Of a stretch of 64,000 nt of DNA, positions 1 through 54,782 are shown piece by piece (the stretch's first letter is position 1; each line of letters starts with the position of its first letter). The stretch is from IMG/VR virus record IMGVR_UViG_2936514734_000001, positions 160,001-224,000 of that record; one strand, given 5' to 3'. A program made the position numbers and the translations under genes. Below the pieces are notes generated by a model. The model was not told the origin of the DNA. It did no database searches and saw only the letters and a list, made by a program, of their open reading frames with translations. Source of the DNA: a virus (Duplodnaviria; Caudoviricetes).

Positions 1-125
1 TCTTTCATAACAATTACGCATTAAAAATTCAAACAATGTATTGTGATCAACGTCAAAAGAACGTTTTAACCCGTCGTGTTCGTACTCTATATGTGGTAAT
101 TTTTGATCTCCTAATGTAATTTGTA

Positions 126-692: not shown

Positions 693-693
693 A

Positions 694-1341: not shown

Positions 1342-1733
1342 ATAAAGTCACTTTCTTCATCAATAAATTCTTTCAATACAGAAGCTTGTTGTTCTACTCC
1401 AAGGCTTCTTCCGAATTCATAGTAATAATCACGTCCATTTGAAGAAGATGCCTTATCCATAATGTCTTGTAAATCATCATTTATATGTTCATATGCTATT
1501 TCTAATATTTCTCCGCTGTATTCATCCAACATACTTTTTGGAAGTTCACCCTGAGTGAAAAGAACCTTATAAATTTTAGCTATCTTTCCGTAGCGGATTA
1601 ACCAATCCATAGGCATGCTCTTATCTAAATTAGCTTCAAATGTAGTAATTAAGTTTGCAACGTTAACTTTTTCTGTTGGTATCTTTTCTACAACAGTAGT
1701 AAGATCTTGAATGCCATGTAATTTTACCTTCAA
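1338..1733 (-). CDS. hypothetical protein
   Basis: 131-aa ORF with 4-bp overlaps at both ends and GGAGG RBS. Confidence 0.7.
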   Translation of the reverse strand: MKVKLHGIQDLTTVVEKIPTEKVNVANLITTFEANLDKSMPMDWLIRYGKIAKIYKVLFTQGELPKSMLDEYSGEILEIAYEHINDDLQDIMDKASSSNGRDYYYEFGRSLGVEQQASVLKEFIDEESDFI

Positions 1734-7580: not shown

Positions 7581-8588
7581 TTAATTTCCGAGTTTGTATG
7601 TGTAGATACGAACAAAAAAGGCTTCAGCCGCTTCTTCTAAAATACCCTTAACGATATTCCAGTCTCCACCGCCACGAGCACAACCAATAAACTTAGGAAC
7701 GCCAACCTTTAAGTCTGATATATTATGGGTACGTTTCTTCAAATCTTCCAAATAACTAAAGATAGCAGAGCGTAATGCTTCATAATCAGTGTGTTGTATG
7801 TCTGTTCCATATCTAAATTGTCCATAAAGATTTACAACCTCAACAGGCTTTAGTTGGTTTTGTACACGAGCATACGTATATTTACCAAGCTTTTCTTTAG
7901 GTGAAAGCGGTGATTCACAATCTACTTTATACACTTCCGGAAAAGTTTTTTTGATCTGTTTTGCAATACCTGAACCCATTGTTGACTGACAGTTTGCTTG
8001 ATGCATCATCACGTCACAATCACTCTTCAATAAGTCTCCTTTTACTTCAACCACCAATGCCATAGGATTCACCTCTATAATCTTTTTCTCTTTCTTTTTG
8101 GCATAATTAACACAATTAGAGGTGCCACCTTTTGAACCATCAAATATAGCAATTAATTCATCACATGAATTAACCATATACTCATTACGAACCTGCATTA
8201 GATATGGTTGATAATACATAGTACTTGTATAAGTAACAAAATCAGCTTGATCTACAATACTGTGCCACATTTTCTGTGATTCTTTAGGCCATTTCTTTTC
8301 ATGATTCATACAGGGGATAGCAGCTTCAAACTGAACAGGAAATCCCTGCTTCTTTAACTTGAGAGCTACTAATGCAAAAATTGTATCGGCACCTAATGCC
8401 ATCCCACCTATAGCAATGATCTTTTTCCCCTGTTTTATATGGGAAAGAAGATGTTCTCGTAGTTTAAAAGCAATCGCTATATTAACAGGACTATAATAGT
8501 CATATCCTCCAAGACGGCTAGGTCTATGACCAGTAAGGGCTATTCTAATTGTTTGTTTTCCAGCCAAAATAATCTCCTCCTTATTCAA
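7581..8588 (-). CDS. SLOG (YspA/DUF1273-like) domain fused to a C-terminal macrodomain; start probably TTG 8567
   Basis: N-part IALTGHRP, GGMALGAD, RNEYMV, GGT..CV.YA; C-part GDLL..HQANC..MGSGIA, NLYGQ, IGCARGGGDW. Confidence 0.8.
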   Translation of the reverse strand: MNKEEIILAGKQTIRIALTGHRPSRLGGYDYYSPVNIAIAFKLREHLLSHIKQGKKIIAIGGMALGADTIFALVALKLKKQGFPVQFEAAIPCMNHEKKWPKESQKMWHSIVDQADFVTYTSTMYYQPYLMQVRNEYMVNSCDELIAIFDGSKGGTSNCVNYAKKKEKKIIEVNPMALVVEVKGDLLKSDCDVMMHQANCQSTMGSGIAKQIKKTFPEVYKVDCESPLSPKEKLGKYTYARVQNQLKPVEVVNLYGQFRYGTDIQHTDYEALRSAIFSYLEDLKKRTHNISDLKVGVPKFIGCARGGGDWNIVKGILEEAAEAFFVRIYTYKLGN

Positions 8589-8645: not shown

Positions 8646-9854
8646 TTAATGCGCCTTAAAGTTATAAAGCGGCTTAATAATATTATCAATAACAATTGAG
8701 TCTTTTACGTTTTGAACAATTTCCTCTATTGGCTTGTATACCATAGGAGCTTCATCTAGCGTAGATTGCTCTACAGATGTTGTCCATACACCAGACATTG
8801 TTTCTTTAAATTCATCTAATGACAGTTTTTCCTTAGCTTTAGAACGAGACATGATACGTCCAGCTCCGTGCGGTGCTGAGAAATTCCAATCCGGATTGCC
8901 AAGACCTGTAGCAATAATACTACCATCTCTCATATTGATAGGAATGATTACACGTTCTCCTTTTTGTGCAGAAATTGCACCTTTACGAAGAATCATATTT
9001 TCCATGTCAATGTAGTTATGGATAGTAGTAAAATCATCTATTACATTCCAGTCCATGCGTGTAACTATTTCATCAATCATTGCCTTACGATTAAGAAGTG
9101 CATAATGCTGTGCAATCTTCATATCATTCATGTAATCGTCAAAAAGTTGGCCTTCTGCATAAGCAAGTTCCTTTTGAATTTTCGGTTTCTTGATATTTTT
9201 AAGTGCATCTTGAATTTCAGATTGACGACCAGCAGCTATTAATTCAGCAATTAAGCGATCTTTTTCATGTTTTACATTCATCAATTCATCATAAGCACGA
9301 TTTTGATAATGCTCAGCTATTTGTTTTCCTAGATTACGAGAACCCGAGTGAATTACAAGAACGACCTTATCATCTAATTCATTAAGCTCAATAAAATGAT
9401 TTCCTCCGCCTAGTGTCCCAATAGAATCCTTAGCACGATCTAGATTAAATGGTGCTCGAACGTTTCTAAAATCTACGCGTTTAGATAATAGGTGTCGTTG
9501 ACTATTAGAGCGAACACTAAATCCGCTTGGAACATGTTTGCGAATAACATCATCAAGCTGGTCAAAATTAACTTCTGTTTTGTTCTTATCAATAATTGCT
9601 ACTTCCATACCACAGCCAATATCAACACCAACTAAATTAGGAACAATCTTGTCTTGAATAGTCATTGTTGTGCCAATCGTACATCCAGCACCAGCATGTG
9701 TATCAGGCATAATACGAATCTGACTGTCTTTTACAAATTCTTGATTACATAGCTGAACAATTTGAGACATAGCTGTAGTTTCTACATTGTCAGTGAACAC
9801 TTTTGCTGTATTATATTTACCTGTTAGTTCTATCATTGGTATCATTCTCCCCAT
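8646..9854 (-). CDS. rtcB: RtcB family RNA ligase
   Basis: MPDTHAG, VGVDIGCG, GTLGGGNHFIE, HSGSR, HNY, RKGA, HGAGR.MSR and DEAP..YK motifs. Confidence 0.95.
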   Translation of the reverse strand: MGRMIPMIELTGKYNTAKVFTDNVETTAMSQIVQLCNQEFVKDSQIRIMPDTHAGAGCTIGTTMTIQDKIVPNLVGVDIGCGMEVAIIDKNKTEVNFDQLDDVIRKHVPSGFSVRSNSQRHLLSKRVDFRNVRAPFNLDRAKDSIGTLGGGNHFIELNELDDKVVLVIHSGSRNLGKQIAEHYQNRAYDELMNVKHEKDRLIAELIAAGRQSEIQDALKNIKKPKIQKELAYAEGQLFDDYMNDMKIAQHYALLNRKAMIDEIVTRMDWNVIDDFTTIHNYIDMENMILRKGAISAQKGERVIIPINMRDGSIIATGLGNPDWNFSAPHGAGRIMSRSKAKEKLSLDEFKETMSGVWTTSVEQSTLDEAPMVYKPIEEIVQNVKDSIVIDNIIKPLYNFKAH

Positions 9855-16559: not shown

Positions 16560-17226
16560 ATTCTTCGCCCCTTTCATACATATCCATGAGTTGATTAACA
16601 AGCGCATCTGTGATTTTATTGTGTTCTCTTGGTACATGCTTCAACTCTACATTAGGGAATGAGTACAATTTATTCTTTAATTCTAGGGCGTAATCTCTAA
16701 ATATCTTTTGTGCAGGTAGTTTAGTTGATACATGCTGTACCATGGATGCACTATCTGTTACAAATATGATTCTGTCTGCTTTAACCTTATATTTTTCTAC
16801 AAACAATAAAGCTTGTAGTAAGCCATGATACTCCGCAAGAGTCGAATTAATATCTACTGTTTCACCTGTTGGTAAAGTAATTTTGTCACCAATAAATGTC
16901 GCATCATGTTTTAACATCTTTTGATCACCGTAGATAGCAAAAGCACTAGCCGATAATGAACGTAAGTTGTTGTCATGATTATTTCGAACACCTCCATCAG
17001 TAAAGACAACCACAGTGTTATATTTCTCTTGAAATGTTTTCTGAGTCTTTAAATCTTCTAATAGAGCGCCTACATCGTATCCATTTTCCTTCATCTCTTT
17101 CAATAGCAAATCTTGTTTTAAAGAAATTTCTTTTGCTGAACTATGATTACCGCTATCAACTTGTTCATAAAAAGAAAAAAACAGATGACTAAACTCACTA
17201 GCCATCTGCTCGACTGTATTAACCAA
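16546..17226 (-). CDS. ribonuclease H (RNase HI-like) family protein
   Basis: VFTDGG, AEYHGL, TDS and HVPREHN..TDAL.N catalytic pattern. Confidence 0.85.
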   Translation of the reverse strand: MVNTVEQMASEFSHLFFSFYEQVDSGNHSSAKEISLKQDLLLKEMKENGYDVGALLEDLKTQKTFQEKYNTVVVFTDGGVRNNHDNNLRSLSASAFAIYGDQKMLKHDATFIGDKITLPTGETVDINSTLAEYHGLLQALLFVEKYKVKADRIIFVTDSASMVQHVSTKLPAQKIFRDYALELKNKLYSFPNVELKHVPREHNKITDALVNQLMDMYERGEEFAIN

Positions 17227-18094
17227 GGTATTGATTAATGATACTTTCTTTATTTAGGAACGTGCGGTAAATTCCTTTTCGCGTATCAAAAGTGATAGCA
17301 AAACAATGTAATCCAGGCATATCCTCATTATCTATTCTTGCAGTTAGGAGGATATTTGCAAAGTTAAACAATAGGTTAGCAGCTGTAATGTTAGTCATAA
17401 TGTTTTGTGGGTGAGATACCGCTGCTTCGTCACAACTTAGCTCTGTAGGTAGTTTATCCGCACCTTCTAGTACTTCAGGAAACATTTCACCTACCATTGG
17501 TGTGCGGAACCAAGAGTTTTGACCAAGTTCATTTACATAACCTCTTCCTGGTAAAAATCCGCATACAACTTGACCATTCAAGAATTCATTACCACTACTT
17601 AATGAAAAAACGCCTCTAGTTTTTTGTTGAAGCTCTAATGCTGCCTCATGAATGAATACGCGTGTTTTATTATTATCAACACAATCAACTAATACAGGAA
17701 TCATAGGAGGTTCATTTTCCAATAAAGATAAAACCAACTTAGTTAACATTTCTGTATTAGTGATATATTCATCTAAATATTGAATGTTTGTGCTAAAAGC
17801 AACACCGTAACGGGTAGATAGAACTTCTGCTTTATTCTTTTCTAAATCCTTTTCTACAAAGTTCTGACGATTAAGGTTAGATAAAGACACAGTATCTGCA
17901 TCAATAAGAACTAACTTATGCGGAGGTAGTCCTTCCATTTTTCTTAATTTATTTGTAATTGAGATTTGTCTTGCTAGGTTAGGAATAAGGTAACCACCTG
18001 TTCCACCCGCACCCACTACTACGAATAGTTTAGATATGTGATATGATGTGTCAAGATTGTATGTAGTTTCTAAATTTAATTGTAACGTTGACAT
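17219..18094 (-). CDS. ThiF/E1-like ubiquitin-activating enzyme (PRTRC-type)
   Basis: VVGAGGTGG, DADTV..SNLNRQ, NKAEVL, DCVDN..TR, GN....GQV, and LSC (candidate catalytic Cys). Confidence 0.92.
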   Translation of the reverse strand: MSTLQLNLETTYNLDTSYHISKLFVVVGAGGTGGYLIPNLARQISITNKLRKMEGLPPHKLVLIDADTVSLSNLNRQNFVEKDLEKNKAEVLSTRYGVAFSTNIQYLDEYITNTEMLTKLVLSLLENEPPMIPVLVDCVDNNKTRVFIHEAALELQQKTRGVFSLSSGNEFLNGQVVCGFLPGRGYVNELGQNSWFRTPMVGEMFPEVLEGADKLPTELSCDEAAVSHPQNIMTNITAANLLFNFANILLTARIDNEDMPGLHCFAITFDTRKGIYRTFLNKESIINQYLG

Positions 18095-18150
18095 ATTAAT
18101 TCCCCTCTCTATAACCGAAAAGTGTAGGGGCGTTAGCCCCCACTATCTTA

Positions 18151-19416
18151 TTAAATTTGGTTTTGTTTAACCGCACCGATTGCGGCTTCAATAATTTGGT
18201 TGTAACCTAACTTTGTATAATCAGCTGTGATATCAGCAACATTATCCGCTACATCCAACTTCCTTACTTCATCTTTTAAGTCTAAGAACTGAACAATTTC
18301 TGCGTTTTCAAAATCATTCGTACTGAATGGTAGTGCTGAATGACCACCATATCCTTCATTTAGAAGGTGACTGCTGTACATAGCTTCCTCCAAGCCGTAG
18401 AGATCGCCTTCAAAATCCTCTGGAAATAATGTTGTTTGCCCTGATAAAGGCTGAAGTTTTCCGTTTGCTTTGGCGAGATAACTGTTACTGGGATAGGTTG
18501 ATTTCAAATTCGGAACATATTTCTTAGTATGTTGTTCCATCCATTCCGCTGGGTATTCAATATTTTCGAATGGTCCTCGATAAAGCTCCTCTGTAGTTTC
18601 TGTAAACGTCTGTGACTCGAAACCTGGAACAGTAGAGCTAACAACATGAGTTGATGTCGTAACCATCATAGGCCAATCAAACAATACAGAAGGGCATACT
18701 AATTTTTTAGATTTACCTGTAACATAACGAAATGCGAAAGCAGGTTGTTCATTTTTAATCTGACCCCATACTCCATAAAACTGCGTGCTGTTTTCATTGG
18801 CGTCATCTGTAGAGCTAAAAAATGCATTCATAGTATGGTGTGAATGAGTTTCTGCTAATAAGGATAAGTTTTGTCTTAGCCAGTCAACCATTGGGTCGCC
18901 ATGAAATTCTGACAAACTAGCACTATTTTCTTGTCGTGGAACATACACAACTAATTGCCCATCAACCAACAACCCCTTCATTGGAGTATCATCAGAGTAC
19001 TTAACTGGCAATGCTTTGTTGTCTTTATTCCAAAAGAAAAGCAATGATGCTTCAGTTCCATCCTTAGCGTGAACATCACGATAAAAGCTTAAAGCCATTT
19101 GAAGATACTTGAATGGAATTTTCGGAACAAGTAGTTCTGTTCCTTCAGTCATTTTATTTAAACCAGGGATGCTATCTTTAAAATCTTGTACCTTTGTTTT
19201 AAATACTGCTGTATCAGTTTTCTCTACACGGAATAAACCGTTAGCTGCTGTCACAAAGTTAATCTTTTTCAAAGAGTCTGTGTTGTAATTAGAGTCATAA
19301 GCTAAGTATTCCGTTACTTGACTTGCAATCTGACTCGCTAGTAGATTTGATAGATTAAGTGTCATTTGTATGCTCTCCATTCTAACTTTTTCTCTTGTAA
19401 TAAATGTTATTAACAC
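18151..19416 (-). CDS. JAB/MPN (Mov34) metalloprotease, deubiquitinase-like (PRTRC protein A-like)
   Basis: TEA plus HSHHTMNAFFSSTDD = E...HxH..(F)S..D JAB motif. Confidence 0.88.
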   Translation of the reverse strand: MLITFITREKVRMESIQMTLNLSNLLASQIASQVTEYLAYDSNYNTDSLKKINFVTAANGLFRVEKTDTAVFKTKVQDFKDSIPGLNKMTEGTELLVPKIPFKYLQMALSFYRDVHAKDGTEASLLFFWNKDNKALPVKYSDDTPMKGLLVDGQLVVYVPRQENSASLSEFHGDPMVDWLRQNLSLLAETHSHHTMNAFFSSTDDANENSTQFYGVWGQIKNEQPAFAFRYVTGKSKKLVCPSVLFDWPMMVTTSTHVVSSTVPGFESQTFTETTEELYRGPFENIEYPAEWMEQHTKKYVPNLKSTYPSNSYLAKANGKLQPLSGQTTLFPEDFEGDLYGLEEAMYSSHLLNEGYGGHSALPFSTNDFENAEIVQFLDLKDEVRKLDVADNVADITADYTKLGYNQIIEAAIGAVKQNQI

Positions 19417-19508
19417 ATATTCCCCTTATAAACAGTGTTACTTAGTTTATTCTAGGGGAATCTGTTATTTTATAGGTTAATACAGTGTTTATGAGTTGAT
19501 TCTCAAAG

Positions 19509-20279
19509 TCATTCAAAGATGCCTGGAAGATAGTTTTTCACTGCTTGTTGCACATCTAATGTTGAAGATGATTTAAGCGAGTCAAAGGGATAAACAAATT
19601 CTTCTCCCGCTTCTTTGCTTGCTTGTAGTTTTCTAGATAAATCAACCATATGATAAACAGCACAATCTGTATTAAATGGTGAATATTCCTCGGATTCAGG
19701 ATCTGGATTCCATTCAAATTCTTTTACTCGATTATGAGAAAGATCAAAGTTAAATGGTTGAGCAAAGAAACGTGCTGGAATATTTTGAATCGATTTACCC
19801 GTTGGTACCTCTGGATTTTCATGTCCCCAACAAATACCATGAGCAACACCGATATTAGGAAAAGGCGCATGTAAGACCTTATCCTTAAATGAAAGCAATT
19901 CGTGTTTAAGTACGTACATCATAGAATGTCTTAAACGTTTTCTTCCATTTCCATCAGTAAATACTTCAAAAATCCAAAGCATTGGCGGTACTGGAATAGT
20001 AAACTCTTTAGGAACACCAGTATCACGCGATGCAAAAACAACCTGTCTCTCTGTTGCAGGTGTGGTCATTACATAGCCTTCGTAATGATTCTTACGATAA
20101 TACTTAACAACTCCCCATTGAGAAGGAAGAAGCGGTGTTTCCATGGCCTGCTCCTTCATAAAGATTTCTTGAATAGTTTCGATGTTTGTATGTTTAATTG
20201 TTTTAATCCCTTGCTCATTAACAGTCGTTACTGTTACCTTTTCTGGTTCTAAAACAATAGTTGTGCTTGGTGTAGCCAT
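19509..20279 (-). CDS. prokaryotic E2-like conjugating enzyme (PRTRC protein B-like)
   Basis: HAPFPNI....GICWG with the Cys at the E2 catalytic position; FF..PFN.DL; adjacent to JAB and E1. Confidence 0.8.
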   Translation of the reverse strand: MATPSTTIVLEPEKVTVTTVNEQGIKTIKHTNIETIQEIFMKEQAMETPLLPSQWGVVKYYRKNHYEGYVMTTPATERQVVFASRDTGVPKEFTIPVPPMLWIFEVFTDGNGRKRLRHSMMYVLKHELLSFKDKVLHAPFPNIGVAHGICWGHENPEVPTGKSIQNIPARFFAQPFNFDLSHNRVKEFEWNPDPESEEYSPFNTDCAVYHMVDLSRKLQASKEAGEEFVYPFDSLKSSSTLDVQQAVKNYLPGIFE

Positions 20280-20551
20280 TATTTTACCTCCCTAATGTTC
20301 AATACGCCTTGAATGAATTCTGCATTTTTATCACTATTAAAATCCGCTTTGATTTTATCAATATCAATTCCTAGCTCTACTGCTTGCTCAAAGGATATTC
20401 CAGCTTCACTCATTACTTCATCCGTAATTTTCTCTTCTAAAAGCTCACCCTTATCTAAAGAGGCGGACTGAATAGCTTCCTCTTTAGATAATGCCTTTAC
20501 CTTATATTTTTGTTCAGCAAGAACTAATAAAGTTACCTCATACTCTTTCAT
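20279..20551 (-). CDS. hypothetical protein in the Ubl operon
   Basis: 90 aa, GGAGG RBS, TAATG overlap with the E2 gene. Confidence 0.7.
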   Translation of the reverse strand: MKEYEVTLLVLAEQKYKVKALSKEEAIQSASLDKGELLEEKITDEVMSEAGISFEQAVELGIDIDKIKADFNSDKNAEFIQGVLNIREVK

Positions 20552-20565
20552 TAGTAATCCTCCAA

Positions 20566-22203
20566 TCAGCCTGCAAAGCTATGAATAGTGAGCAATGCCT
20601 GTTGTTTTGTACTGTGTCGATCTACAAATTTATAAATAGAATAAAGACCAGGTGGTAATTGTAATGCACGCAATGCCTTATCTATATCTTGATGTATTGT
20701 GTACAATCTTTTTACTCCCTCTTCATCTATTCGTATCGCGCCTATTGTACCTGAGCTGTCTCTAACAACTACAAAGCCATTAGGATGTTTCGCATTTTTT
20801 GTAAGTAATTCCTTACTGAAATCTATAGAAGTTCTTTCGAAACTGTATAAATCATTATCAATGAAAGTTGAAGCTGAACTTGAGTCTTCTTCACTTTGTC
20901 CTTCTAACAGTTTAGAAGTCGTAAGGAATTTCTCCACAACCGCTTTAGGATCTAACGATCTATCTTGTTTAATAAAATCAACTACAGCACTAAATACTGT
21001 ATTCTCCTGCATTTCAAGTTTTTCTAATGGTTTCTCTAAAGATTCCACTAGTTTCTTACAGATTTCAATTTCTTCTACTAACTCTTCCGGTATTAATTGT
21101 TTAAAATCTTCATGTGATGCTTTTACAAAGATATTATTATTAATAATGTAAGGATTAGCTCCATCTAGACTACGAGGTGATTCATTATCATAATCAGTGT
21201 ATTGACCTACTCCTAAATACTTAAGTTCCTCAGTATCAGCGGGCAAAGTATCTGAAATGATAATTGGCTTAGCTACATAACTCGCATCATCACTCATATC
21301 ATGTGAAGAATAGATATGGACAGAAGAACCTAAGAAAAGCAGATCCTCAAATGATGGCTCTTTAACAAACACATCTCTATTGTGTTCTACACAAAGATTG
21401 CGTAAAGCTTCATCTTCTATAAGTGAAACGGGAACAATCATCTTAGAAAGCAACTCTTTAAGAATAGAAACTCCAAACTTCATATGTTCTTCACGTAGTG
21501 ATTCTTTTAGTCGTTCATTAAAAGCATCAACCGCATCATTTAAAGTGCTGTAGTCATCAGATAAATCTTGGATATACCTTTTCTCTGATTTAACTACCTG
21601 ATAAATATTTGAGAAATATGTGCTACCTGCACTTAGTCCAAATAAGCGTCCTCTACTATCATGTGGAAGACAGAAATCCCCACTTAAAGGAATCTTATTT
21701 CTCACGAGAATCAAGTTATCATCTTCATCTTTTGTGCATAGGCTCCTAATACGGTCATAATAGTAATTAGAACGAAACTTACGCCAAAAACCTGAGTTGT
21801 AACTTTGCAAAAATGAATCTCTAAAGCGAGCCATATTCTTATACTTTTCAAACTTCTCAATCATAGCTGCTGTCTCTTCGTCAATTACTAATTTAAAGAC
21901 ATCAGAATGATTATCGTTACTTACTAATTCTTCGTGAGTAATCTCATAGTATTGATTTAGCTCCTTAAGGATTTCATTAGTAACTTCAAAGAATAGCTGC
22001 TTAGATTGTTCAAGATTATTAGAAGGAACATTCTCCATCTTTTCTTGCAGGATATTAATAATTTCTGTAAAGCGTTCCTCGGGCATACTATTCTTTAGAC
22101 TATGTAAAAGATTAAAAACCCCACGTCTATATTCAACTTCTGTAGTCATAAGCTCATTTGACATGTAAACTCTCCTTTCTTTATTAGATGTAATCGACAT
22201 CAA
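20566..22203 (-). CDS. large hypothetical protein in the Ubl operon (start probably MSNEL)
   Basis: 545-aa ORF, co-oriented, AAAGGAG RBS before the internal Met. Confidence 0.75.
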   Translation of the reverse strand: MMSITSNKERRVYMSNELMTTEVEYRRGVFNLLHSLKNSMPEERFTEIINILQEKMENVPSNNLEQSKQLFFEVTNEILKELNQYYEITHEELVSNDNHSDVFKLVIDEETAAMIEKFEKYKNMARFRDSFLQSYNSGFWRKFRSNYYYDRIRSLCTKDEDDNLILVRNKIPLSGDFCLPHDSRGRLFGLSAGSTYFSNIYQVVKSEKRYIQDLSDDYSTLNDAVDAFNERLKESLREEHMKFGVSILKELLSKMIVPVSLIEDEALRNLCVEHNRDVFVKEPSFEDLLFLGSSVHIYSSHDMSDDASYVAKPIIISDTLPADTEELKYLGVGQYTDYDNESPRSLDGANPYIINNNIFVKASHEDFKQLIPEELVEEIEICKKLVESLEKPLEKLEMQENTVFSAVVDFIKQDRSLDPKAVVEKFLTTSKLLEGQSEEDSSSASTFIDNDLYSFERTSIDFSKELLTKNAKHPNGFVVVRDSSGTIGAIRIDEEGVKRLYTIHQDIDKALRALQLPPGLYSIYKFVDRHSTKQQALLTIHSFAG

Positions 22204-22534
22204 AAGAGAAAACGTTTGGTAGTCGATCTAAACCAACAAGGTATTTCTTATACTCTTGCAAGTACGTTTTCAATTGACGATCCATATTGTTAATAATGTT
22301 TGAGTTTTGATTTGTCATGTATTCATTAAATTCAAGAAAAGTCATTGGCTTTGTTAAGGTAGCAGAAGCTTCTGCAATTTCCGATGGCCAAAATTCAGTT
22401 TCTTGCACTTGTTCAAAACCATTTATAACTCTTAAAGTGAGCGGCGCTTGCTTTTCCATAAAGGAACCTCCGTATCTATTAAAATAAAACAAAATATGAG
22501 GGAAACCAGTTTTAAACACCAGTTTCCCTTTCAA
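22184..22534 (-). CDS. hypothetical protein (start probably MEKQAP)
   Basis: GGAGG RBS upstream of the internal ATG. Confidence 0.65.
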   Translation of the reverse strand: MKGKLVFKTGFPHILFYFNRYGGSFMEKQAPLTLRVINGFEQVQETEFWPSEIAEASATLTKPMTFLEFNEYMTNQNSNIINNMDRQLKTYLQEYKKYLVGLDRLPNVFSFDVDYI

Positions 22535-22628
22535 TAAAACATATTCTGTTAGAATCCACTAGAAATCAGTGGATGTGACCTTAAAAAGGTACTGACTATC
22601 TATTGGATTCTAGTATTTTCTATTAGAA

Positions 22629-23336
22629 TTAGTTGCCTTTAGTTCCTGCTTTAGCAGAGAAAGTAACTGTGTTTCCATTTTGAACAACGTTAGCATTTTC
22701 TAATTCCGGAAAGTTTTCTGCCATTGCTACTTTAAGTTGGTTAAGGTCTGTTGTTGCTGGCACGTTGATTTTTGTATCACCGTAAACCACTTCTAGTTGA
22801 TCTGCACCTTTTGTACCTGCTTTTGCGTTGAAGATAATTTGACCTTCATTTACTGTTACGTTAGCATTTTCTAATTCAGGGAAGTTCTCAGCCATTGCTA
22901 CTTTGATGTCCGCTAATTCAGTGCTTGCTGGTAAGTTAATTTTAGTATCTCCATAAACTACTTCTACAGTTTCCATTTCACCCGCTCCTTTAGTTCCTGC
23001 TTTTGCTTTAAATACGATTTCATTGTCGTTCACTTGTACATCAGCGTTTTCAAGCTCCGGGAAATTCTCAGCCATCGCTGCTTTGATGCTTGATAATTCA
23101 GTACCTACTGGTAAATCGATTTTAGTATCTCCGTAAATCACCTTTAAGTTTTCCATGTTTGTTGCCCCTTTCGTTCCTGCTTTCGCTGTGAATTCAATTA
23201 CATTACCGTTTACTGCTACATTTGCATTTTCAAGTTCTGGGAAGTTTTCAGCCATAGCTACCTTAATACTTTCTAAAGCTGTACCTTCTGGAAGATTGAT
23301 TTTTGTATCACCATAAATTACTTGTAATGTGTTCAT
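22629..23336 (-). CDS. polyubiquitin-like precursor: four tandem Prok_Ub (PRTRC protein C-like) domains
   Basis: Four ~57-60-aa repeats, each with YGDTKI, AMAENFPELENA and a C-terminal KAGTKG; ATG 23336 follows an AGAGGAG RBS. Confidence 0.88.
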   Translation of the reverse strand: MNTLQVIYGDTKINLPEGTALESIKVAMAENFPELENANVAVNGNVIEFTAKAGTKGATNMENLKVIYGDTKIDLPVGTELSSIKAAMAENFPELENADVQVNDNEIVFKAKAGTKGAGEMETVEVVYGDTKINLPASTELADIKVAMAENFPELENANVTVNEGQIIFNAKAGTKGADQLEVVYGDTKINVPATTDLNQLKVAMAENFPELENANVVQNGNTVTFSAKAGTKGN

Positions 23337-24204: not shown

Positions 24205-24672
24205 TTAACTAGCTTCCTGGTACTCGACTTGTTCAGATTGTACTTTTTCTTGAGCTTTTAATCTTACTTGCTTTGCATACATTTCTTGTTGCTCTTGTTT
24301 TCTAACGTGTCGAGGAAGGAACATCCTTGCGCCATTAAGACCATACGCAATGCGGTTCCAATCTGTCAAGATGGTTGTTTTGAGCAATTTCGGATTTTGT
24401 AAAATAACATTGTATGCTTCTCTTAGGGTTAAGTCATCTAAATCAATCCCTTGTTCAGTTAAGAAATCGATTGTACTGCCCCGCTGTGTTAATAAGTCAT
24501 CTAAGCCATCTTCAGTAAGATGTAGTAGTGCTTGAAATTCTTTAAAAGTAAAGCGATCTCGCACAATGTGCTTGATTGTGGCATTAAGATTATACTTAGA
24601 TAGTTTTTCAGCCACTTTTTCTCCTTCGGATGTATTGATTGTGTAAATAGTTATAAATTGATTCTCCAACAA
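24205..24672 (-). CDS. Spx/MgsR (ArsC-family) regulator-like protein lacking CXXC
   Basis: ITIYT, LTEDGLDDLL, NPKLL and FLPRHVR align by eye with Spx VTLYT, MTEDGTDEII, PGLL and FLPRKVR. Confidence 0.75.
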   Translation of the reverse strand: MLENQFITIYTINTSEGEKVAEKLSKYNLNATIKHIVRDRFTFKEFQALLHLTEDGLDDLLTQRGSTIDFLTEQGIDLDDLTLREAYNVILQNPKLLKTTILTDWNRIAYGLNGARMFLPRHVRKQEQQEMYAKQVRLKAQEKVQSEQVEYQEAS

Positions 24673-25013
24673 TAATTCCTCCTGATGTTTTGCTTAGCGA
24701 CAACATAAGCACTTGGTTTGAAAAATGCTAGTAGTTTTATCAAAGAAACCACCACCTTTCAAAAATTTTTTTAGCAAAACATCAGTAAACCAAAAAAGGT
24801 GAGGGCGTTAGCCCTCAACCCTTATCTACGAAGTATCGTATTTCATGTATAATTCCCACCTTTCTGATAAATTACAATATCGACATTTTATATTTCATAA
24901 TTCGAGAAAAATTGTCGATATTTATCAATCTTTTACATATTTTTTGTAGATTTCAGCGAAAATGACAATTTTGTAATCAAAAAAAATAACCTTTTCAATT
25001 TAGAAAAAGGTTG

Positions 25014-25042
25014 TTGCAATAGTATTTTATCCCTTGTATGAT
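25014..25042 (+). promoter_or_regulatory. sigma-A-type promoter for rep with a ~310-nt leader
   Basis: TTGCAA-N17-TATGAT. Confidence 0.55.
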
Positions 25043-25123
25043 TAAAATAAGACAAAAAGATAGCGTATAAAAAATTTGTCAATAGGTTTTTAACATATAT
25101 AAATTTTTTTACGAAAAAAGTAC

Positions 25124-25243
25124 AAAAAAAATAGGCTATCGATGTTCGCTGCATCGTAGCCCGGATAAAAAACTAAAAAAACCAAGAACACATACAATTT
25201 CAGTTACCCACAAAAATTGTGATGTTTAAATAAGAATTTCGAT
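25124..25243 (-). ncRNA. putative counter-transcribed antisense RNA of the rep leader
   Basis: Minus-strand promoter at 25250-25278 and terminator hairpin 25134-25161 followed by a T-run. Confidence 0.5.
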
Positions 25244-25249
25244 GTACTA

Positions 25250-25278
25250 ATCTTATCATGACTTTTTTAAAAGTTCAA
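25250..25278 (-). promoter_or_regulatory. sigma-A promoter with extended -10, antisense to the rep leader
   Basis: TTGAAC-N17-TAAGAT with TGn immediately upstream of the -10. Confidence 0.55.
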
Positions 25279-25297
25279 TAGTACATATAGTTTTTCT

Positions 25298-26506
25298 TTG
25301 CCTTTTTTAGTCTTTTATCCTAGTAAACTACAAAAATACTATGGATTGGAGGCTTTTTTCATGTCAAAAAAGCTCATTAAACTTAGCGATATTATTAAAC
25401 AAGAATTCTACCAATTACCTAAACTAGTTGTTTGGAACCAGACATACCGTGAAGGATTAAGCGACGGTGCTAAATTGCTTTACATGATTATTCGTGACCG
25501 CTTTTCATTATCTGTTCATACTTCTGAACAAGAAATTAAACAAGGTAAACCATTAACATATGTAGATCAAGACGAAAACGTATTTTGTATTTTAGACAAT
25601 GGTGAAATCGAATTCACTTTAAATAAAACTAAGAAAACGGCTATTAAATGTATGCAAGAATTAGAAACCTTCGAATTAATTGAAACAAAAGAAGTTGAAG
25701 GTGGCGCAAACAGAATCTACTTGAAAGACTTAGATTCTAGTGGAATCTCTTTAGCAACATTTATTGGCGAGAAAGATTATTATAAGCATGTTCAATCTCG
25801 CAAGAAAAAAGGCAAAGATCCATCTAAGACTTTGGAGGAATTTATCGAAGCTGCTGAAAGACGATTACAAGGTAAAGATGAAAGTAATGAATCCGACAAG
25901 AGTTCAAAAAACAGGGGTGGAAATAATACACCCCCTAGGGATGGAAAAGATACACCCCCCGGGGAGGAAGAAAGTACACCTCTAGGGGATGGAGAAACTG
26001 CACCCCCAGGGGTGGAAAAACTACACCCTAATAAGAATGACTCTAACTCTAATAACTCTAAATCACCTGAAAGTAATGAGAATGAGTTTAATGAATCTTC
26101 TTCTAGTGATAAAGAGCCTAGCGGTTTAGAAGAAGAACAACCAATGATTATCACAGTTGATAATAACTATGCTTTATTGGAGTCTATTAAGCCAATTCAT
26201 GAAATATGCAAAACCCAAAAAGATATTAATGTCGTCAAAAAAGCCCTGATTGAAGCTAAAATAGAGGGTTTCTATAAGTGTGATGTACTTAATGCAATTG
26301 GTTCACATGCTAAGAACATGAATGCTTACAGAGCTAAAGGTGAAACTATCCGCTATGAGCCTGCATTCTTTGCTAATAATCTAGTTGACCGTATCATTTC
26401 TAATGCTGCAGAAAGACAAGCTAAGTCTGAAAAAGAAGCTAAAAAAGCAAAACAACAAACCTTAAATTCTGGACGTATACCCTTTTATAACTTTCTAGAA
26501 GAATAA
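25298..26506 (+). CDS. repA: RepA_N-family replication initiator (start probably ATG 25361)
   Basis: FYQLPK, LS..AKLLY...RDR..LS, VD..., EL....LIE and NRIYL winged-helix motifs; central iteron-encoded linker. Confidence 0.85.
   Translation: MPFLVFYPSKLQKYYGLEAFFMSKKLIKLSDIIKQEFYQLPKLVVWNQTYREGLSDGAKLLYMIIRDRFSLSVHTSEQEIKQGKPLTYVDQDENVFCILDNGEIEFTLNKTKKTAIKCMQELETFELIETKEVEGGANRIYLKDLDSSGISLATFIGEKDYYKHVQSRKKKGKDPSKTLEEFIEAAERRLQGKDESNESDKSSKNRGGNNTPPRDGKDTPPGEEESTPLGDGETAPPGVEKLHPNKNDSNSNNSKSPESNENEFNESSSSDKEPSGLEEEQPMIITVDNNYALLESIKPIHEICKTQKDINVVKKALIEAKIEGFYKCDVLNAIGSHAKNMNAYRAKGETIRYEPAFFANNLVDRIISNAAERQAKSEKEAKKAKQQTLNSGRIPFYNFLEE
25913..26030 (+). repeat. five ~24-bp quasi-palindromic direct repeats (Rep boxes/origin) inside repA
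   Basis: Units approximating GGGGTGGAAA..TACACCCC at 25913, 25937, 25961, 25985 and 26009. Confidence 0.8.
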
Positions 26507-26659
26507 GATTCTAGGGGAATCCACTAGAATACATTGTTTTGTAACAAAAAATCATATAATGTCGTAAAAATCTAGTACAATTTATTAGCAATGTATGGTA
26601 TATTGAGTGAGAACACATACAAATATTAATTGATTTAGAGAGAGGAGTTTCGATTTTTT

Positions 26660-27649
26660 ATGGCATTAAATTTGATTTTAGGTGTTGACGCTGGGCTTAA
26701 CTCAGTTAAAGTTGTAGGTCAAAAAGGTGAAACAAAATTCGCATCTGTTGTCACTAGAAAACCTGCACATGCTAAGACTTTCAAAGGCGTTTTAAGCTAT
26801 GAGGAAAAGAATAAACAAAACAGATTTGAATTAACAGTTGATAACAAAGAATATTACTTAGGTGAGCATGCGATCTTTGCTACTAAAAACAGCGGTGTAA
26901 GACGTGGTGGCGGTAGTGATGGTACTGGCTCTAAGAATAATACTAAAGCATTTATCCGCGCTCTAGGTGGAATCTGCTTATATATTGATCATTATGAAAG
27001 ATTCGATGATACAGAGATTAATGTATTTTTAACATATGGTACTCCTATAAACAGTGCAACAAATGATGATGAAATCGAAGAAATTGAAGAGCGCTTCAAA
27101 AACCAAGGACGTCCTATCGAGCTTACATATAACGGCGTTAAACTAAGTATTTCAATCAAGGACATTATTGTATTACCAGAAGGTGCAGCGGCATATTACG
27201 CCAAAGAGGATTATGAAGAAGAAGATGTATATATCCTTGATGCTGGATCACAAACTGTTAACCTTACACACTTAGAAGATGGAGCTCCTGTTCCAAATAG
27301 CTCTGACAACTTAACTGTAGGTGTTGAATTCTACAAAGAAACATACCCTGACAATACCGCTGAAGTATTGAGCGAGGATGCTATTGAGATGTTAAGTGAA
27401 GAGTTAAGATGGCCTAAAGGTTCGAAAATTCATGTGTGTGGTGGATATGCTAATCAATTAGCTTTGGCATTTAATGTAGTAGCTGATGGTAACTATACTG
27501 CAGAAGTATTAGTGCCAGAGATTCCTTTATCAGGAAGACGTGTTAAGACACTTGACCCTATTTATGCAAATGCAACAGGTCTTTTCTTCCTTGCTCTAGA
27601 AGCTTTCCAAGATTACATCAATGTTGCTAAGCCAAAGGTAAAAGGGTGA
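26660..27649 (+). CDS. parM: ParM/StbA-family actin-like segregation ATPase
   Basis: GVDAG..SVK phosphate-1, PEGAAA connect, LDAGSQT phosphate-2 and CGGYA adenosine motifs. Confidence 0.85.
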   Translation: MALNLILGVDAGLNSVKVVGQKGETKFASVVTRKPAHAKTFKGVLSYEEKNKQNRFELTVDNKEYYLGEHAIFATKNSGVRRGGGSDGTGSKNNTKAFIRALGGICLYIDHYERFDDTEINVFLTYGTPINSATNDDEIEEIEERFKNQGRPIELTYNGVKLSISIKDIIVLPEGAAAYYAKEDYEEEDVYILDAGSQTVNLTHLEDGAPVPNSSDNLTVGVEFYKETYPDNTAEVLSEDAIEMLSEELRWPKGSKIHVCGGYANQLALAFNVVADGNYTAEVLVPEIPLSGRRVKTLDPIYANATGLFFLALEAFQDYINVAKPKVKG

Positions 27650-27654
27650 TTTAA

Positions 27655-28215
27655 TTGGCTAATAACGAAAACAAATCCAAAGCTAAAAAGAAACCTTCAA
27701 ATCAACAGCATAAAACTGTTTACTTCAATACGCACAATGTAAATGATGTTCAGTTGTACAAATATGCTCAAAGTGTGGGTGTTAGAAACTTTAGCGGTTG
27801 GGTTAAAAGTCTAATTTATCAAGAGATGGTTAGACGAAATGGTGCTCCACCTAACCCATATGAATACGCATCACTTCCTGCTATGGAAGTTGAACAGCAA
27901 GAATCGGTAGAAATTCCTGTTAGATCGATACCAGCTAAAACACAAGGACAATCAATCAAGTTGAAGCCTAAACAGGAAACGGTACCTGAGCAACCTACGA
28001 AACCTGTTGTAGAAGAAACAGAAGTTATTGAAGAAAAACAACAAGTAAAAGAAGAAGAGCCTGCAGTGCAGGAAGTAAATAAAACCAATGAAACAAATGA
28101 GGAAGTAGTTGTAGAGGCTAGTTCTGAAGGGTCTAATGGTGATGAAATAGACATTAGTCGTACTAATCGTGCAGCTAAAGCAAGAAGCATGTTAGGTAAT
28201 AGAGCAAGAAGATAA
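27655..28215 (+). CDS. ParR-like centromere-binding adaptor
   Basis: Directly after parM; N-terminal RHH-like KTVYFN..D..LY..A...NFSGWVKSLI; acidic disordered linker and basic tail. Confidence 0.65.
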   Translation: MANNENKSKAKKKPSNQQHKTVYFNTHNVNDVQLYKYAQSVGVRNFSGWVKSLIYQEMVRRNGAPPNPYEYASLPAMEVEQQESVEIPVRSIPAKTQGQSIKLKPKQETVPEQPTKPVVEETEVIEEKQQVKEEEPAVQEVNKTNETNEEVVVEASSEGSNGDEIDISRTNRAAKARSMLGNRARR

Positions 28216-54769: not shown

Positions 54770-54782
54770 AGGAGAAAATAGC

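What the first reader, a model, noticed from the sequence alone, without database searches (positions are those of the whole stretch)
17219..23336. Phage-encoded ubiquitin-like conjugation operon (E1 + JAB + E2 + Ubl)
Seen: one co-oriented run encoding a ThiF/E1 (GxGGxG, SNLNRQ, CVDN, LSC), a JAB protease (E..HSH..FS..D), an E2-like protein (PFPN...ICWG), three unknown ORFs and a Ubl. Known: this set matches the PRTRC cassette, whose biological role is uncharacterised and which normally includes a ParB gene. Related bacterial E1/E2/JAB/Ubl systems conjugate proteins in anti-phage defence. Inference: a tailed phage or phage-plasmid carries its own intact protein-conjugation pathway with no ParB in view, placed next to RNase H, an OB protein and DnaE. 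It may modify host or phage proteins, or counter host conjugation defences.
Basis: partly seen in the sequence, partly recalled or inferred. Interest (0 to 1): 0.9.

Follow-up and report, generated by a model that had tools for sequence, protein, structure and literature searches.

The report
Phage polyubiquitin-like protein-tagging operon
A 239-kb Bacillus-type jumbo phage carries its own ubiquitin-like tagging kit (activating enzyme, carrier enzyme, trimming protease). The tag gene is built like eukaryotic polyubiquitin, with four head-to-tail copies plus a one-residue cap, and nobody has yet tested what such a kit does for a phage.

Summary
On the minus strand, 17219-23336 encodes a ThiF-type E1, a JAMM/JAB peptidase, a Prok-E2_D protein and a Prok_Ub tag; each passes its Pfam threshold.

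Every unit ends GTKG, and one Asn follows the last unit.

Single-copy relatives mostly end exactly at GxKG. Units are 67-96% identical within a protein but 34-55% between phages. A terminator-like hairpin follows the tag gene here and in seven relatives.

The cassette is a very divergent relative of the untested PRTRC / "operon type 6d" system. All NCBIfam PRTRC hits fall below cut-off, and the whole genome has no ParB.

The host element is a tailed phage (terminase, portal) with a RepA_N plus actin-like partition module beside the operon. A second, JAB-less E2-Ubl-E1 set lies about 17 kb away.

Most likely mechanism: JAB cuts the precursor into monomers, then E1 (Cys221) and E2 (Cys150) conjugate them to unknown targets.

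This scan has found the same phage cassette family on other DNA (at least six genomes).

Verdict: a real new variant of a known kind, of high interest, with its function untested.

The parts
22629..23336 (-). Poly-Ubl precursor gene (235 aa). It has four head-to-tail beta-grasp units of 57-60 aa, each ending GTKG. Linkers are 1-3 residues long, and one Asn cap follows the last unit.
   Evidence: Translations are. Prok_Ub and ThiS pass their Pfam cut-offs. A GAGGAG ribosome-binding site lies 8 nt before the ATG at 23336. The DNA repeat has period 180 and 74% matches.
22460..22628 (-). Structured intergenic region after the tag gene. It holds a 12-bp hairpin (22499-22529) followed by a T-rich run, which looks like a terminator or attenuator.
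   Evidence: The site is found. The fold has MFE -51.1 kcal/mol and z -5.67 against shuffles. Of seven relatives, five have a GC-rich hairpin plus T-run at the same position. KLEB27-3 has a weak T-run and L016 has none.
22184..22459 (-). 'small' accessory protein (91 aa from the ATG at 22459; the longest ORF runs to 22534). Its family has a conserved C-terminus ending D-x-[YF]-I.
   Evidence: A GGAGG ribosome-binding site precedes 22459. HMM hits occur in L008, L009 and L013. The alignment with positional analogues is A6. There is no Pfam, NCBIfam or PHROG family.
20566..22164 (-). 'big' accessory protein (532 aa), a multi-domain orphan. It may be a specificity factor, an adaptor or a substrate.
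   Evidence: A GGAGAG ribosome-binding site precedes the ATG at 22164. Only close homologues exist, and none is named. The AF2 model has pLDDT 80 and pTM 0.54. No fold match was found. HMM hits occur in L008-L014.
20279..20551 (-). 90-aa ORF between 'big' and E2, seen only in this genome. Its role in the cassette is doubtful.
   Evidence: It matches no family and has no homologue in any related locus. The closest relatives go straight from 'big' to E2.
19509..20279 (-). E2-like conjugating enzyme (256 aa, Prok-E2_D). The putative catalytic residue is Cys150, with invariant Asn142 eight residues before it.
   Evidence: Pfam scores 32.2 bits against a cut-off of 25. In a 63-sequence family alignment P52, P98, N142, C150 and N177 are invariant. 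The AF2 model has pLDDT 92.9. Residues 46-247 align to about 14 eukaryotic E2 structures at Z 3.3-4.4. Atlas Prok-E2_D clusters match at TM 0.60-0.69.
18151..19368 (-). JAB/JAMM metallopeptidase (405 aa). It has an N-terminal extra domain and a variable C-terminal tail.
   Evidence: Prok-JAB scores 26.5 bits against 25. E122, H191, S192, H193, S201 and D204 (numbering of the 421-aa ORF) are invariant in 10 divergent phage sequences. A GGAGAG ribosome-binding site precedes the ATG at 19368. It is the only JAB in the genome.
18124..18143 (-). GC-rich hairpin (core GGGCTAACGCCC) in the 56-nt gap between JAB and E1.
   Evidence: The site is found. The same core recurs 9-12 times in the genome and is enriched in intergenic regions.
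17219..18094 (-). ThiF-family E1 (291 aa). It has the nucleotide loop GxGGxGG, R76, D140 and a putative catalytic Cys221 in LPTExSC.
   Evidence: Pfam ThiF scores 60.7 bits. The best NCBIfam hit is PRTRC_ThiF at 94.6 bits, below its cut-off. Invariant residues come from the five-phage alignment.
1..1733 (-). Upstream half of a second, JAB-less cassette. In the window lie a small-like 131-aa protein ending SDFI (1338-1733), a 215-aa ORF (694-1341), a 188-aa ORF (126-692) and the first codons of a second Prok-E2_D gene (1-129). Just outside the window the cassette continues with a Ubl ending KKG and a second ThiF E1 (G000:C1:158012-160129).
   Evidence: The second E1 copy was found. Prok-E2_D scores 26.8 bits, and PRTRC_ThiF is the best hit of the second E1.

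Best explanation
This is a phage-encoded ubiquitin-like protein-conjugation pathway whose tag is made as a polyubiquitin-style precursor.

Proposed steps (all inferred):
1. The tag gene is transcribed at a higher level than the enzyme genes, because a terminator-like hairpin follows it.
2. The 235-aa product is cut by the cassette's JAMM/JAB peptidase after each GTKG. This also removes the one-residue Asn cap and releases four monomers of about 6 kDa with a free C-terminal glycine.
3. The ThiF-type E1 adenylates that glycine and probably holds it as a thioester on Cys221.
4. The tag passes to Cys150 of the divergent UBC-like E2.
5. It is then attached to amino groups of target proteins. The fast-evolving 'small' and 'big' proteins act as specificity factors or are themselves the first targets.
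6. The same JAB can probably remove the tag again.

I think the system most likely serves the phage's own cycle, by tagging phage or host proteins during infection or carriage, and is not a cargo defence system. The module is kept, in one gene order, across very divergent large phages.

Shown here: the gene content, the catalytic motifs, the repeat and cap pattern, the synteny, and the distribution. Every enzymatic step, and the identity of the targets, is inferred.
For: Components and motifs:
- All four parts pass Pfam thresholds.
- The JAMM residues are invariant in 10 divergent phages.
- E1 keeps its nucleotide loop, Arg, Asp and Cys221.
- In 63 E2 sequences Cys150 and Asn142 are invariant. 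From my own knowledge, this is the same 8-residue spacing as the Asn of the HPN motif and the catalytic Cys in UBC enzymes.
- The E2 model is confident (pLDDT 92.9). Its residues 46-247 align almost only to eukaryotic E2 enzymes.

Precursor logic:
- Every unit keeps G-x-K-G, and K56 and G57 are invariant in 17 units from different cassettes.
- All 27 multi-copy proteins examined carry a cap after the last glycine. They comprise the window's own, six from related phages or viral contigs, and 20 database clusters, with 2-7 units.
- Single-copy tags in L017, L018, L022, L023 and the second cassette end exactly at KG. L015 is the exception, with one extra Cys.
- The residue after the cut varies (A, S, M, T, N, I, L, Q, Y, F, G). 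Recognition would therefore lie on the tag side, as for deubiquitinases.
- Copy number changes by whole units between close relatives. Units are homogenised within a protein: 67-96% identical within, 34-55% between phages.
- In this genome the capped precursor sits beside the only JAB, while the JAB-less second cassette has an uncapped tag.

Expression design: a hairpin follows the tag gene here and in seven relatives; five of the seven also have a clear T-run.

Module behaviour: the order Ubl(n)-small-big-E2-JAB-E1 is kept in three cultured Bacillus phages and in IMG/VR contigs of 116-316 kb, while the flanks differ. Bacterial relatives show the same Ubl...E2-JAB-E1 order.

Not defence-like: no PADLOC model matches except a weak generic E1 similarity.
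Against: - No experiment exists for this cassette or for any PRTRC / type 6d system in the library searched.
- The E2 fold evidence is weak. Foldseek finds nothing in the PDB, and the E2 matches are only Z 3.3-4.4 at rmsd 4.4-5.5 A.
- All NCBIfam PRTRC hits are below cut-off.
- No E3 and no target is identified. 'big' has no recognisable fold, and no detectable homology links it to its positional analogues in more distant phages.
- Bacterial Bil and Bub tags with two or three beta-grasp domains are used uncut (PMC11601603), so tandem domains alone do not prove processing.
- The operon adjoins a plasmid-type replication and partition module, and relatives sit in bacterial isolate assemblies. 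A role in carriage or in exclusion of other phages is therefore not excluded.
Confidence: 0.68

Rival explanations
1. The tandem protein is not cut between units. It works as one multi-domain ubiquitin-like protein, like the two- and three-domain tags of bacterial Bil and Bub operons. Only the C-terminal cap is trimmed, and the whole 25-kDa chain is conjugated or polymerises.
For: [quoted passage not shown] Iyer et al. 2006 noted two to three tandem Ubl domains in operon type 6e. Linkers between the units here are very short.
Against: - Every internal unit keeps the full G-x-K-G end.
- Units are near-identical within a protein and change in whole-unit steps from 2 to 7 among relatives. Fixed multi-domain proteins do not normally do this.
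- Single-unit tags in related cassettes show that one unit is a complete tag.
Confidence: 0.12
2. The chemistry is the same, but the role differs. The cassette would be cargo of a phage-plasmid that protects the carrier cell or the element, for example by tagging structural proteins of competing phages as Bil systems do, or by acting on incoming or partitioning DNA-associated proteins as its plasmid PRTRC relatives may.
For: - The operon lies beside a RepA_N initiator and an actin-like partition gene, also in the closest relatives.
- Relatives occur as 220-243-kb contigs in Bacillus, Gottfriedia and Cytobacillus isolate assemblies.
- Characterised bacterial E1/E2/JAB/Ubl systems are anti-phage (PMC11601603; 10.1101/2023.09.04.556158).
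- From my own recall of the TIGRFAM PRTRC description, the canonical cassette sits on plasmids and ICEs with ParB. Iyer 2006 records ICE and plasmid locations only for the neighbouring operon type 6b.
Against: - No PADLOC defence model matches E2, JAB, Ubl, 'small' or 'big'.
- The module is retained in one gene order in very divergent large phages. These include cultured ones isolated as plaque formers, and a Salmonella phage reported without lysogeny genes.
- Flanking genes differ between lineages, and the RepA and Alp neighbours are seen only in the closest relatives.
- No ParB is present.
Confidence: 0.17
3. The E1 and the beta-grasp protein form a sulfur-carrier or small-molecule adenylation pair, like ThiF-ThiS or MoeB-MoaD, with no protein conjugation.
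For: ThiF, ThiS and MoeB families are among the weaker hits. The E1 is a minimal 291-aa adenylation domain.
Against: - A conserved E2-family protein with an invariant Cys lies in the same operon, together with a JAMM peptidase with intact metal ligands.
- A repeated, capped tag has no place in sulfur transfer.
- No Pfam or NCBIfam family typical of sulfur transfer or of thiamine/molybdopterin synthesis was hit among the neighbouring genes scanned.
Confidence: 0.03

Closest known systems
PRTRC cassette (NCBIfam TIGR03734-03742), equal to 'operon type 6d' of Iyer, Burroughs and Aravind 2006 (PMC1779556). Pfam families Prok_Ub, Prok-E2_D, Prok-JAB and ThiF.
   Same: - The four core families are the same, and each protein's best NCBIfam hit is a PRTRC family.
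- The order Ubl ... E2 - JAB - E1 is the same as in bacterial loci.
- The tag ends in G-x-K-G.
- Poorly conserved extra proteins sit between the tag and the E2, as the 2006 paper describes.
- Function is untested in both.
   Different: - All scores are far below the NCBIfam cut-offs.
- No ParB is found in the genome, and no PRTRC D, E or F or alpha-hel2 hit.
- The host element is a jumbo tailed phage.
- The tag is a capped head-to-tail tetramer, which the 2006 paper reports only for type 6e, not 6d. It was not seen in 80 bacterial loci.
- The histidine after the catalytic Cys, said to be conserved in 6d E2s, is not conserved here.
Eukaryotic polyubiquitin genes (UBI4, UBB and UBC type) and their processing by deubiquitinases.
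   Same: - Head-to-tail units with little or no spacer.
- Every unit ends in the glycine that is later activated.
- One or more extra residues cap the last unit.
- Units are homogenised within a gene and vary in number between relatives.
- From my own knowledge, yeast UBI4 also ends in a single extra Asn.
   Different: - There is no detectable sequence similarity to ubiquitin.
- The end is GTKG, not LRGG.
- The presumed processing enzyme is a JAMM metalloprotease encoded in the same operon.
- The system is viral and prokaryotic, and most likely an independent invention of the same gene design.
Bacterial Bil (BilABCD) and Bub (type 6E) ubiquitin-like conjugation operons, and type II CBASS Cap2/Cap3.
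   Same: They have the same parts list of E1, E2, JAB or another peptidase, and a beta-grasp tag. They are the only prokaryotic relatives in which protein conjugation has been shown (PMC11601603, PMC11601596, 10.1101/2023.09.04.556158).
   Different: - Those are host defence systems against phages, while this one is carried by phages.
- No PADLOC model matches beyond a weak E1 similarity to Cap2.
- Sequence-profile searches of solved structures found no relative of this E2, JAB or tag.
- Their multi-domain tags are described as single functional proteins, with no precursor processing reported.
Lambda-type tail assembly proteins I (Ubl domain) and K (JAB + NlpC/P60).
   Same: This is the only previously described association of a Ubl and a JAB peptidase in tailed phages (PMC1779556).
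   Different: Those lie in the tail gene cluster, have no E1 or E2, and are not thought to conjugate. This cassette lies among replication genes and has the full cascade.

Membership tests
PRTRC system (NCBIfam) | The ThiF-family protein reaches the TIGR03736 cut-off. | tested here: not met
   It is the best hit, but at 94.6 bits against a cut-off of 144.75. The second E1 scores 79.6 bits.
PRTRC system (NCBIfam) | Proteins A (JAB), B (E2) and C (Ubl) reach their cut-offs. | tested here: not met
   A scores 36.6 against 101.8, B 26.9 against 131.45 and C 28.4 against 45.95. Each is still the top family for its protein.
PRTRC system (NCBIfam) | A ParB-family gene lies in the cassette. | tested here: not met
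   ParB_N (PF02195) has no match in the whole 239-kb genome, while the control genomes match.
PRTRC system (NCBIfam) | Proteins D, E and F are present. | tested here: not met
   No NCBIfam or Pfam hit was found for 'small', 'big', the 90-aa ORF or their positional analogues. One Atlas row with 25% PRTRC_E members matched part of 'big' at TM 0.19/0.45, which is too weak to count.
Operon type 6d (Iyer et al. 2006) / Pfam families | Prok_Ub, Prok-E2_D, Prok-JAB and ThiF lie together in one co-oriented neighbourhood. | tested here: met
   All four are above their Pfam gathering scores, on one strand, within 6.1 kb.
Operon type 6d (Iyer et al. 2006) / Pfam families | The E2 lacks the classical histidine but has an absolutely conserved histidine C-terminal to the catalytic cysteine. 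| tested here: not met
   The window has CWGH, but that position is R, S or D in relatives. In the 63-sequence alignment only P52, P98, N142, C150 and N177 are invariant.
Operon type 6d (Iyer et al. 2006) / Pfam families | The JAB has an extra N-terminal domain with a conserved Arg and Trp. | tested here: inconclusive
   An N-terminal domain of about 100 aa is present. The invariant Arg (R230) and near-invariant Trp (W292) found here lie after the JAMM motif, not before it.
Operon type 6d (Iyer et al. 2006) / Pfam families | A rapidly diverging alpha-helical protein is encoded beside the core genes. | tested here: inconclusive
   'big' diverges fast: 23% identity to the WH1 counterpart and no profile match to analogues. 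Its N-terminal third is helical. It does not hit Pfam alpha-hel2, although Atlas shows bacterial alpha-hel2 + Prok-E2_D fusions.
UBC (E2) fold | The model adopts the UBC fold, with the catalytic Cys in the loop after the beta-meander. | tested here: inconclusive
   The model is confident (pLDDT 92.9, pTM 0.85). Foldseek finds nothing in the PDB. With VIA-align, about 14 of the rows covering residues 46-247 are eukaryotic E2 enzymes, but at Z 3.3-4.4 with 113-135 residues aligned. The secondary-structure order (strands, Cys loop, helices) fits. Residue-level superposition of Cys150 was not available.
JAMM/MPN+ metallopeptidase | The E ... HxH ... S..D metal-binding and catalytic motif is intact. 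| tested here: met
   E122, H191, H193, S201 and D204 are invariant in 10 divergent sequences.
Polyubiquitin-type precursor (architecture, not homology) | Head-to-tail units each end in the activatable glycine, a C-terminal cap is present, and the units evolve in concert. | tested here: met
   All 27 multi-copy proteins with 2-7 units are capped. Unit identity is 67-96% within proteins and 34-55% between phages. Cleavage itself was not tested.
Bil / CBASS-Cap2 / other known defence systems | The proteins match the defence-system HMMs. | tested here: not met
   In PADLOC only the E1 hits Cap2-type E1-E2 models, weakly (26.5 bits). E2, JAB, 'small' and 'big' match nothing, and the tag gives only two weak hits to unrelated models at E about 0.002.

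The most novel reading that the evidence does not exclude
A bacterial virus runs its own ubiquitination-like pathway during infection or plasmid-like carriage, and does so with two orthogonal cascades. The first uses a JAB-processed polyubiquitin-style precursor. The second is a JAB-less set whose tag carries a long, disordered, Lys-rich N-terminal extension. Together they covalently tag virion or host proteins. On this reading the polyubiquitin gene design would have arisen independently in viruses of bacteria, and the untested PRTRC / type 6d family would gain its first tractable model in cultured Bacillus phages.
Probability: 0.35. Interest if true: 0.9.

Novelty: new variant of a known kind. 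Interest (0 to 1): 0.78.

Why it matters
Ubiquitin-like conjugation in bacteria has so far been shown only as a defence against phages (CBASS Cap2, Bil) or in stress-linked Bub operons. Here the phage side owns a complete kit.

The kit has a hallmark thought typical of eukaryotes: a polyubiquitin-type precursor gene with a capping residue and concerted evolution of its units.

The parent family (PRTRC / type 6d) was predicted in 2006, and I found no functional or structural study of it. Three cultured Bacillus phages (KLEB27-3, WH1, Edson) carry the same cassette, so the questions can be tested directly:
- What is tagged?
- Does the JAB make monomers?
- Does the phage need the system?

The KG end also gives a practical handle for mapping targets, because protease digestion should leave a defined remnant on tagged lysines.

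Tried and rejected
- **Fold of 'big'.** Foldseek PDB, VIA-align wide and Atlas gave nothing above background. The Atlas feature search also gave nothing.
- **Homology of 'big' to analogues.** Profile-profile comparison of 'big' with the mid-sized positional analogues of distant phages showed no homology.
- **PRTRC D/E/F and alpha-hel2.** Scans of 'small', 'big' and their analogues found none.
- **Solved structures.** Sequence-profile searches found none for E2, JAB or the tag. The E1 matched only a ThiF-type entry, 9egc, at 7e-8.
- **Virion association.**
  - The WH1 record labels its poly-Ubl 'virion structural protein', but no paper on WH1 or KLEB27-3 is in the library.
  - The Salmonella phage Arash proteome labels its E1-like gene 'structural'. 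However, it lists 116 proteins including ribonucleotide reductases, so the label is not reliable evidence.
  - I therefore do not use virion association as evidence.
- **Expression.** No RNA holder is listed among public runs.
- **Promoter class.** A k-mer search of upstream regions gave only a shared terminator core and no promoter motif.
- **E1 pattern scan of bacterial genomes.** The genome-contig scan with E1 patterns found nothing.
- **E2 alignment as a query.** Alignment A1 had no stretch conserved enough for a collection scan.
- **0305phi8-36 papers.** They do not mention ThiF, JAB or ubiquitin.
- **Prior art.** Searches on jumbo phage + ubiquitin, polyUbl and phage-encoded ubiquitin found no description of this system.

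Full report
**What is there**

The window is bases 160001-224000 of a complete 239,374-bp virus record. It also holds a terminase large subunit (54723-57674) and a portal gene (59119-61233), so the element is a tailed jumbo phage.

On the minus strand, one co-oriented run encodes the following, in order of transcription:
- A Prok_Ub/ThiS-type tag (22629-23336).
- A small ORF (22184-22459).
- A 532-aa ORF (20566-22164).
- A 90-aa ORF (20279-20551).
- A Prok-E2_D protein (19509-20279).
- A Prok-JAB protein (18151-19368).
- A ThiF-family E1 (17219-18094).

Each of the four recognisable proteins exceeds its Pfam gathering score. Gene starts were refined from ribosome-binding sites and from relatives.

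**The tag is a polyubiquitin-style precursor**

The tag protein consists of four units of 57-60 residues. Each ends GTKG, the linkers are one to three residues long, and a single Asn follows the last unit.

The same design recurs in every close or moderately close relative I could find:
- The cultured Bacillus phages KLEB27-3 (4 units, 7-residue cap), WH1 and Edson (5 units, 15-residue cap).
- IMG/VR contigs with 6, 4 and 2 units.
- Twenty database clusters with 3-7 units.

The single-copy tags of more distant cassettes (L017, L018, L022, L023) and of this genome's second cassette end exactly at KG. One single-copy tag (L015) has one extra Cys.

In an alignment of 17 units from different cassettes the final Lys-Gly is invariant. 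Units are 67-96% identical within a protein but only 34-55% identical between phages. They are therefore homogenised, and they are gained and lost in whole steps. The residue after each presumed cut is variable.

These are the properties of eukaryotic polyubiquitin genes. Since an E1 needs a free C-terminal carboxylate, they imply cleavage after each GxKG.

**The enzymes look active**

- **JAB.** The JAMM residues (E122, H191, H193, S201, D204) are invariant across ten divergent phage sequences. It is the only JAB in the genome.
- **E1.** It keeps the nucleotide loop, Arg76, Asp140 and Cys221 in five phages.
- **E2 family.** It has 166 representatives at 50% clustering. Sixty-three of them share invariant Asn142 and Cys150. 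From my own knowledge, the eight-residue spacing equals that of the HPN asparagine and the catalytic cysteine of UBC enzymes.
- **E2 model.**
  - With this alignment the model is confident (pLDDT 92.9, pTM 0.85).
  - Foldseek found no PDB match.
  - The exhaustive aligner matched residues 46-247 almost exclusively to eukaryotic E2 enzymes (Ubc8, UbcH5, UbcH10, UBE2E1, Pex4p and others). The scores were low: Z 3.3-4.4, with 113-135 residues aligned.
  - Atlas clusters named Prok-E2_D, mostly viral, matched at TM 0.60-0.69.
- I read this as a very divergent UBC-like fold.

**The module and its accessory genes**

The order Ubl(n)-small-big-E2-JAB-E1 is conserved in the three cultured Bacillus phages and in IMG/VR contigs of 116-316 kb, while the flanking genes differ. 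In more distant phages the two middle positions are held by proteins of 75-130 and 214-394 residues.

- **'small'.** It shares a C-terminal D-x-[YF]-I ending across these loci.
- **'big'.**
  - It has only close homologues and no family.
  - Its model is reasonable (pLDDT 80), but no fold match was found.
  - No profile similarity links it to its positional analogues.
  - This fits the 'rapidly diverging' extra protein that Iyer et al. described for operon type 6d, but it does not prove homology.
- **The 90-aa ORF.** It is unique to this genome.

**Expression design**

The 169-nt gap after the tag gene is strongly structured (z -5.67). It contains a 12-bp hairpin followed by a T-rich run. Seven relatives have an unrelated GC-rich hairpin at the same place, five of them with a clear T-run. 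I infer attenuation, which would make the tag more abundant than the enzymes.

**Relation to known systems**

- **PRTRC / type 6d.**
  - The best NCBIfam hit of each core protein is a PRTRC family, but every score is far below cut-off.
  - ParB is absent from the whole genome, and PRTRC D, E and F are undetectable.
  - A JAB-profile scan of species-representative bacterial genomes returned 80 loci (Paenibacillus, Brevibacillus, Clostridia, cyanobacteria, Chloroflexota). They share the E2-JAB-E1 order and have single tags. None has three or more units.
  - The phage-type E1 patterns were not found in those genomes.
  - This is therefore a divergent, phage-borne branch of type 6d / PRTRC, not a member by NCBI's criteria.
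- **Defence systems and phage families.** No PADLOC defence model matches beyond a weak E1 similarity. PHROGs v4 has no family for E2, JAB, 'small' or 'big'.
- **Solved structures.** No sequence relative was found for E2, JAB or the tag.
- **Literature.**
  - Type 6d was predicted in 2006, with tandem Ubls noted only for type 6e (PMC1779556).
  - The families shown to conjugate are CBASS Cap2, Bil and Bub (PMC11601603, PMC11601596).
  - A comparative review of jumbo phages mentions no such system (PMC7824862).
  - Term searches found no phage poly-Ubl.

**Context in this genome**

The RepA_N initiator (25298-26506) and an actin-like partition gene (26660-27649) are transcribed divergently, about 2 kb upstream of the tag gene. 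An Spx-like gene (24205-24672) and two small ORFs lie between them and the tag gene. The closest relatives share this arrangement.

Homologues of 'big' and of the tag occur on 220-243-kb contigs in assemblies of Bacillus cereus group, B. velezensis, Gottfriedia and Cytobacillus isolates. This suggests plasmid-like carriage.

A second cassette lies about 17 kb downstream in the direction of transcription, straddling the window start. Its order is small-like protein, two ORFs, Prok-E2_D, a tag ending KKG with a 120-residue disordered Lys-rich N-terminal extension, and a ThiF E1. It has no JAB. It is present only in the closest relative among the five genomes checked.

**Most likely mechanism and rivals**

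I put 0.68 on JAB-processed monomers being activated by E1, carried by E2, and attached to unknown targets for the phage's own benefit.

The main rivals are:
- An uncut multi-domain tag (0.12).
- The same chemistry used as a carriage or defence function of a phage-plasmid (0.17).
- A non-conjugating sulfur-carrier pair (0.03).

**Relation to earlier notes of this scan**

Follow-up reports on at least six other genomes describe the same phage cassette family. They reach the same closest known system, and some note head-to-tail tags. First-stage notes on this genome also noticed the tetramer. I did not treat these as evidence.

- The cap rule across 27 multi-copy proteins.
- The within-versus-between unit identities.
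- The conserved hairpin after the tag gene.
- The E2 model.
- The genome-wide absence of ParB.
- The second JAB-less cassette.
- The plasmid-type neighbours.

**Verdict**

The feature is real and is a new variant of a known but never tested kind. It is of high interest because it can be tested in cultured phages.

Noticed in passing
window 1-1733 (-) and G000:C1:158012-160129 (L005:1426-3543): A second, JAB-less ubiquitin-like set lies here. In order of transcription it has a 131-aa protein ending SDFI (like the 'small' family), 215-aa and 188-aa orphan ORFs, a Prok-E2_D protein (234 aa), a tag ending KKG with a long disordered Lys/Glu/Pro-rich N-terminal extension (188 aa), and a ThiF E1 (270 aa, 32% identical to the first E1). 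Among the five genomes checked, only the closest relative has it.
   Followed up: partly
window 25298-28215 (+): A plasmid-type module sits here: a RepA_N replication initiator, an actin-like (ALP_N) partition protein and a 186-aa ORF. It is transcribed divergently from the block containing the operon, across an AT-rich gap (24673-25297) where the GC skew changes sign. Together with 220-243-kb contigs in bacterial isolate assemblies, this suggests a phage-plasmid lifestyle.
   Followed up: partly
window 24205-24672 (-): This is a phage-encoded Spx/ArsC-family protein. Its best NCBIfam hit is 'transcriptional regulator Spx' at 67.6 bits, below the cut-off of 123. It lies upstream of two small ORFs (one with a zinc ribbon) and the tag gene, and is conserved with them in the closest relatives.
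   Followed up: no
window 3838-4971, 7581-8588, 8646-9854 (-): Three conflict-type or RNA-repair-type genes lie in the same leftward block: an AIPR-domain protein, a YpsA-SLOG + Macro fusion, and an RtcB RNA ligase.
   Followed up: no
window 18124-18143 and 24800-24817 (-); elsewhere in G000: A hairpin with the core GGGCTAACGCCC recurs. Its 9-mers occur 9-12 times in the genome and are the most enriched words in intergenic regions. It appears to be the phage's standard terminator. One copy sits between JAB and E1.
   Followed up: partly
window 20279-20551 (-): A 90-aa acidic ORF is wedged between 'big' and E2, sharing its last base with the E2 start. It has no homologue in any related locus and appears to be a recent insertion into the cassette.
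   Followed up: partly
L040, L042, L045, L054, L066, L082 and other bacterial loci (genome contigs): In Paenibacillus, Brevibacillus and Clostridia loci my tag-unit HMM hits inside the 370-520-aa JAB ORF itself, while no separate tag gene is detected. This could mean Ubl-JAB fusion proteins in bacterial type 6d systems.
   Followed up: no
L006:9197-10127 and L014:7941-8871: In one close relative the E1 gene is split into 183-aa and 88-aa ORFs separated by about 110 nt. It is intact in the other close relative. The cause could be a frameshift, a sequencing error or a small insertion.
   Followed up: no
window 54723-57674 (+): The terminase large subunit is 983 aa. The PHROG match covers only residues 470-947, leaving an unexplained N-terminal extension of about 470 residues.
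   Followed up: no
L026:1519-4539 (Salmonella phage Arash gp248c-gp246c): This cultured Gram-negative phage has the JAB and E1 of the same family. The E1 and the upstream 251-aa gene are labelled 'structural' from a virion proteome, but that proteome also lists many enzymes.
   Followed up: partly
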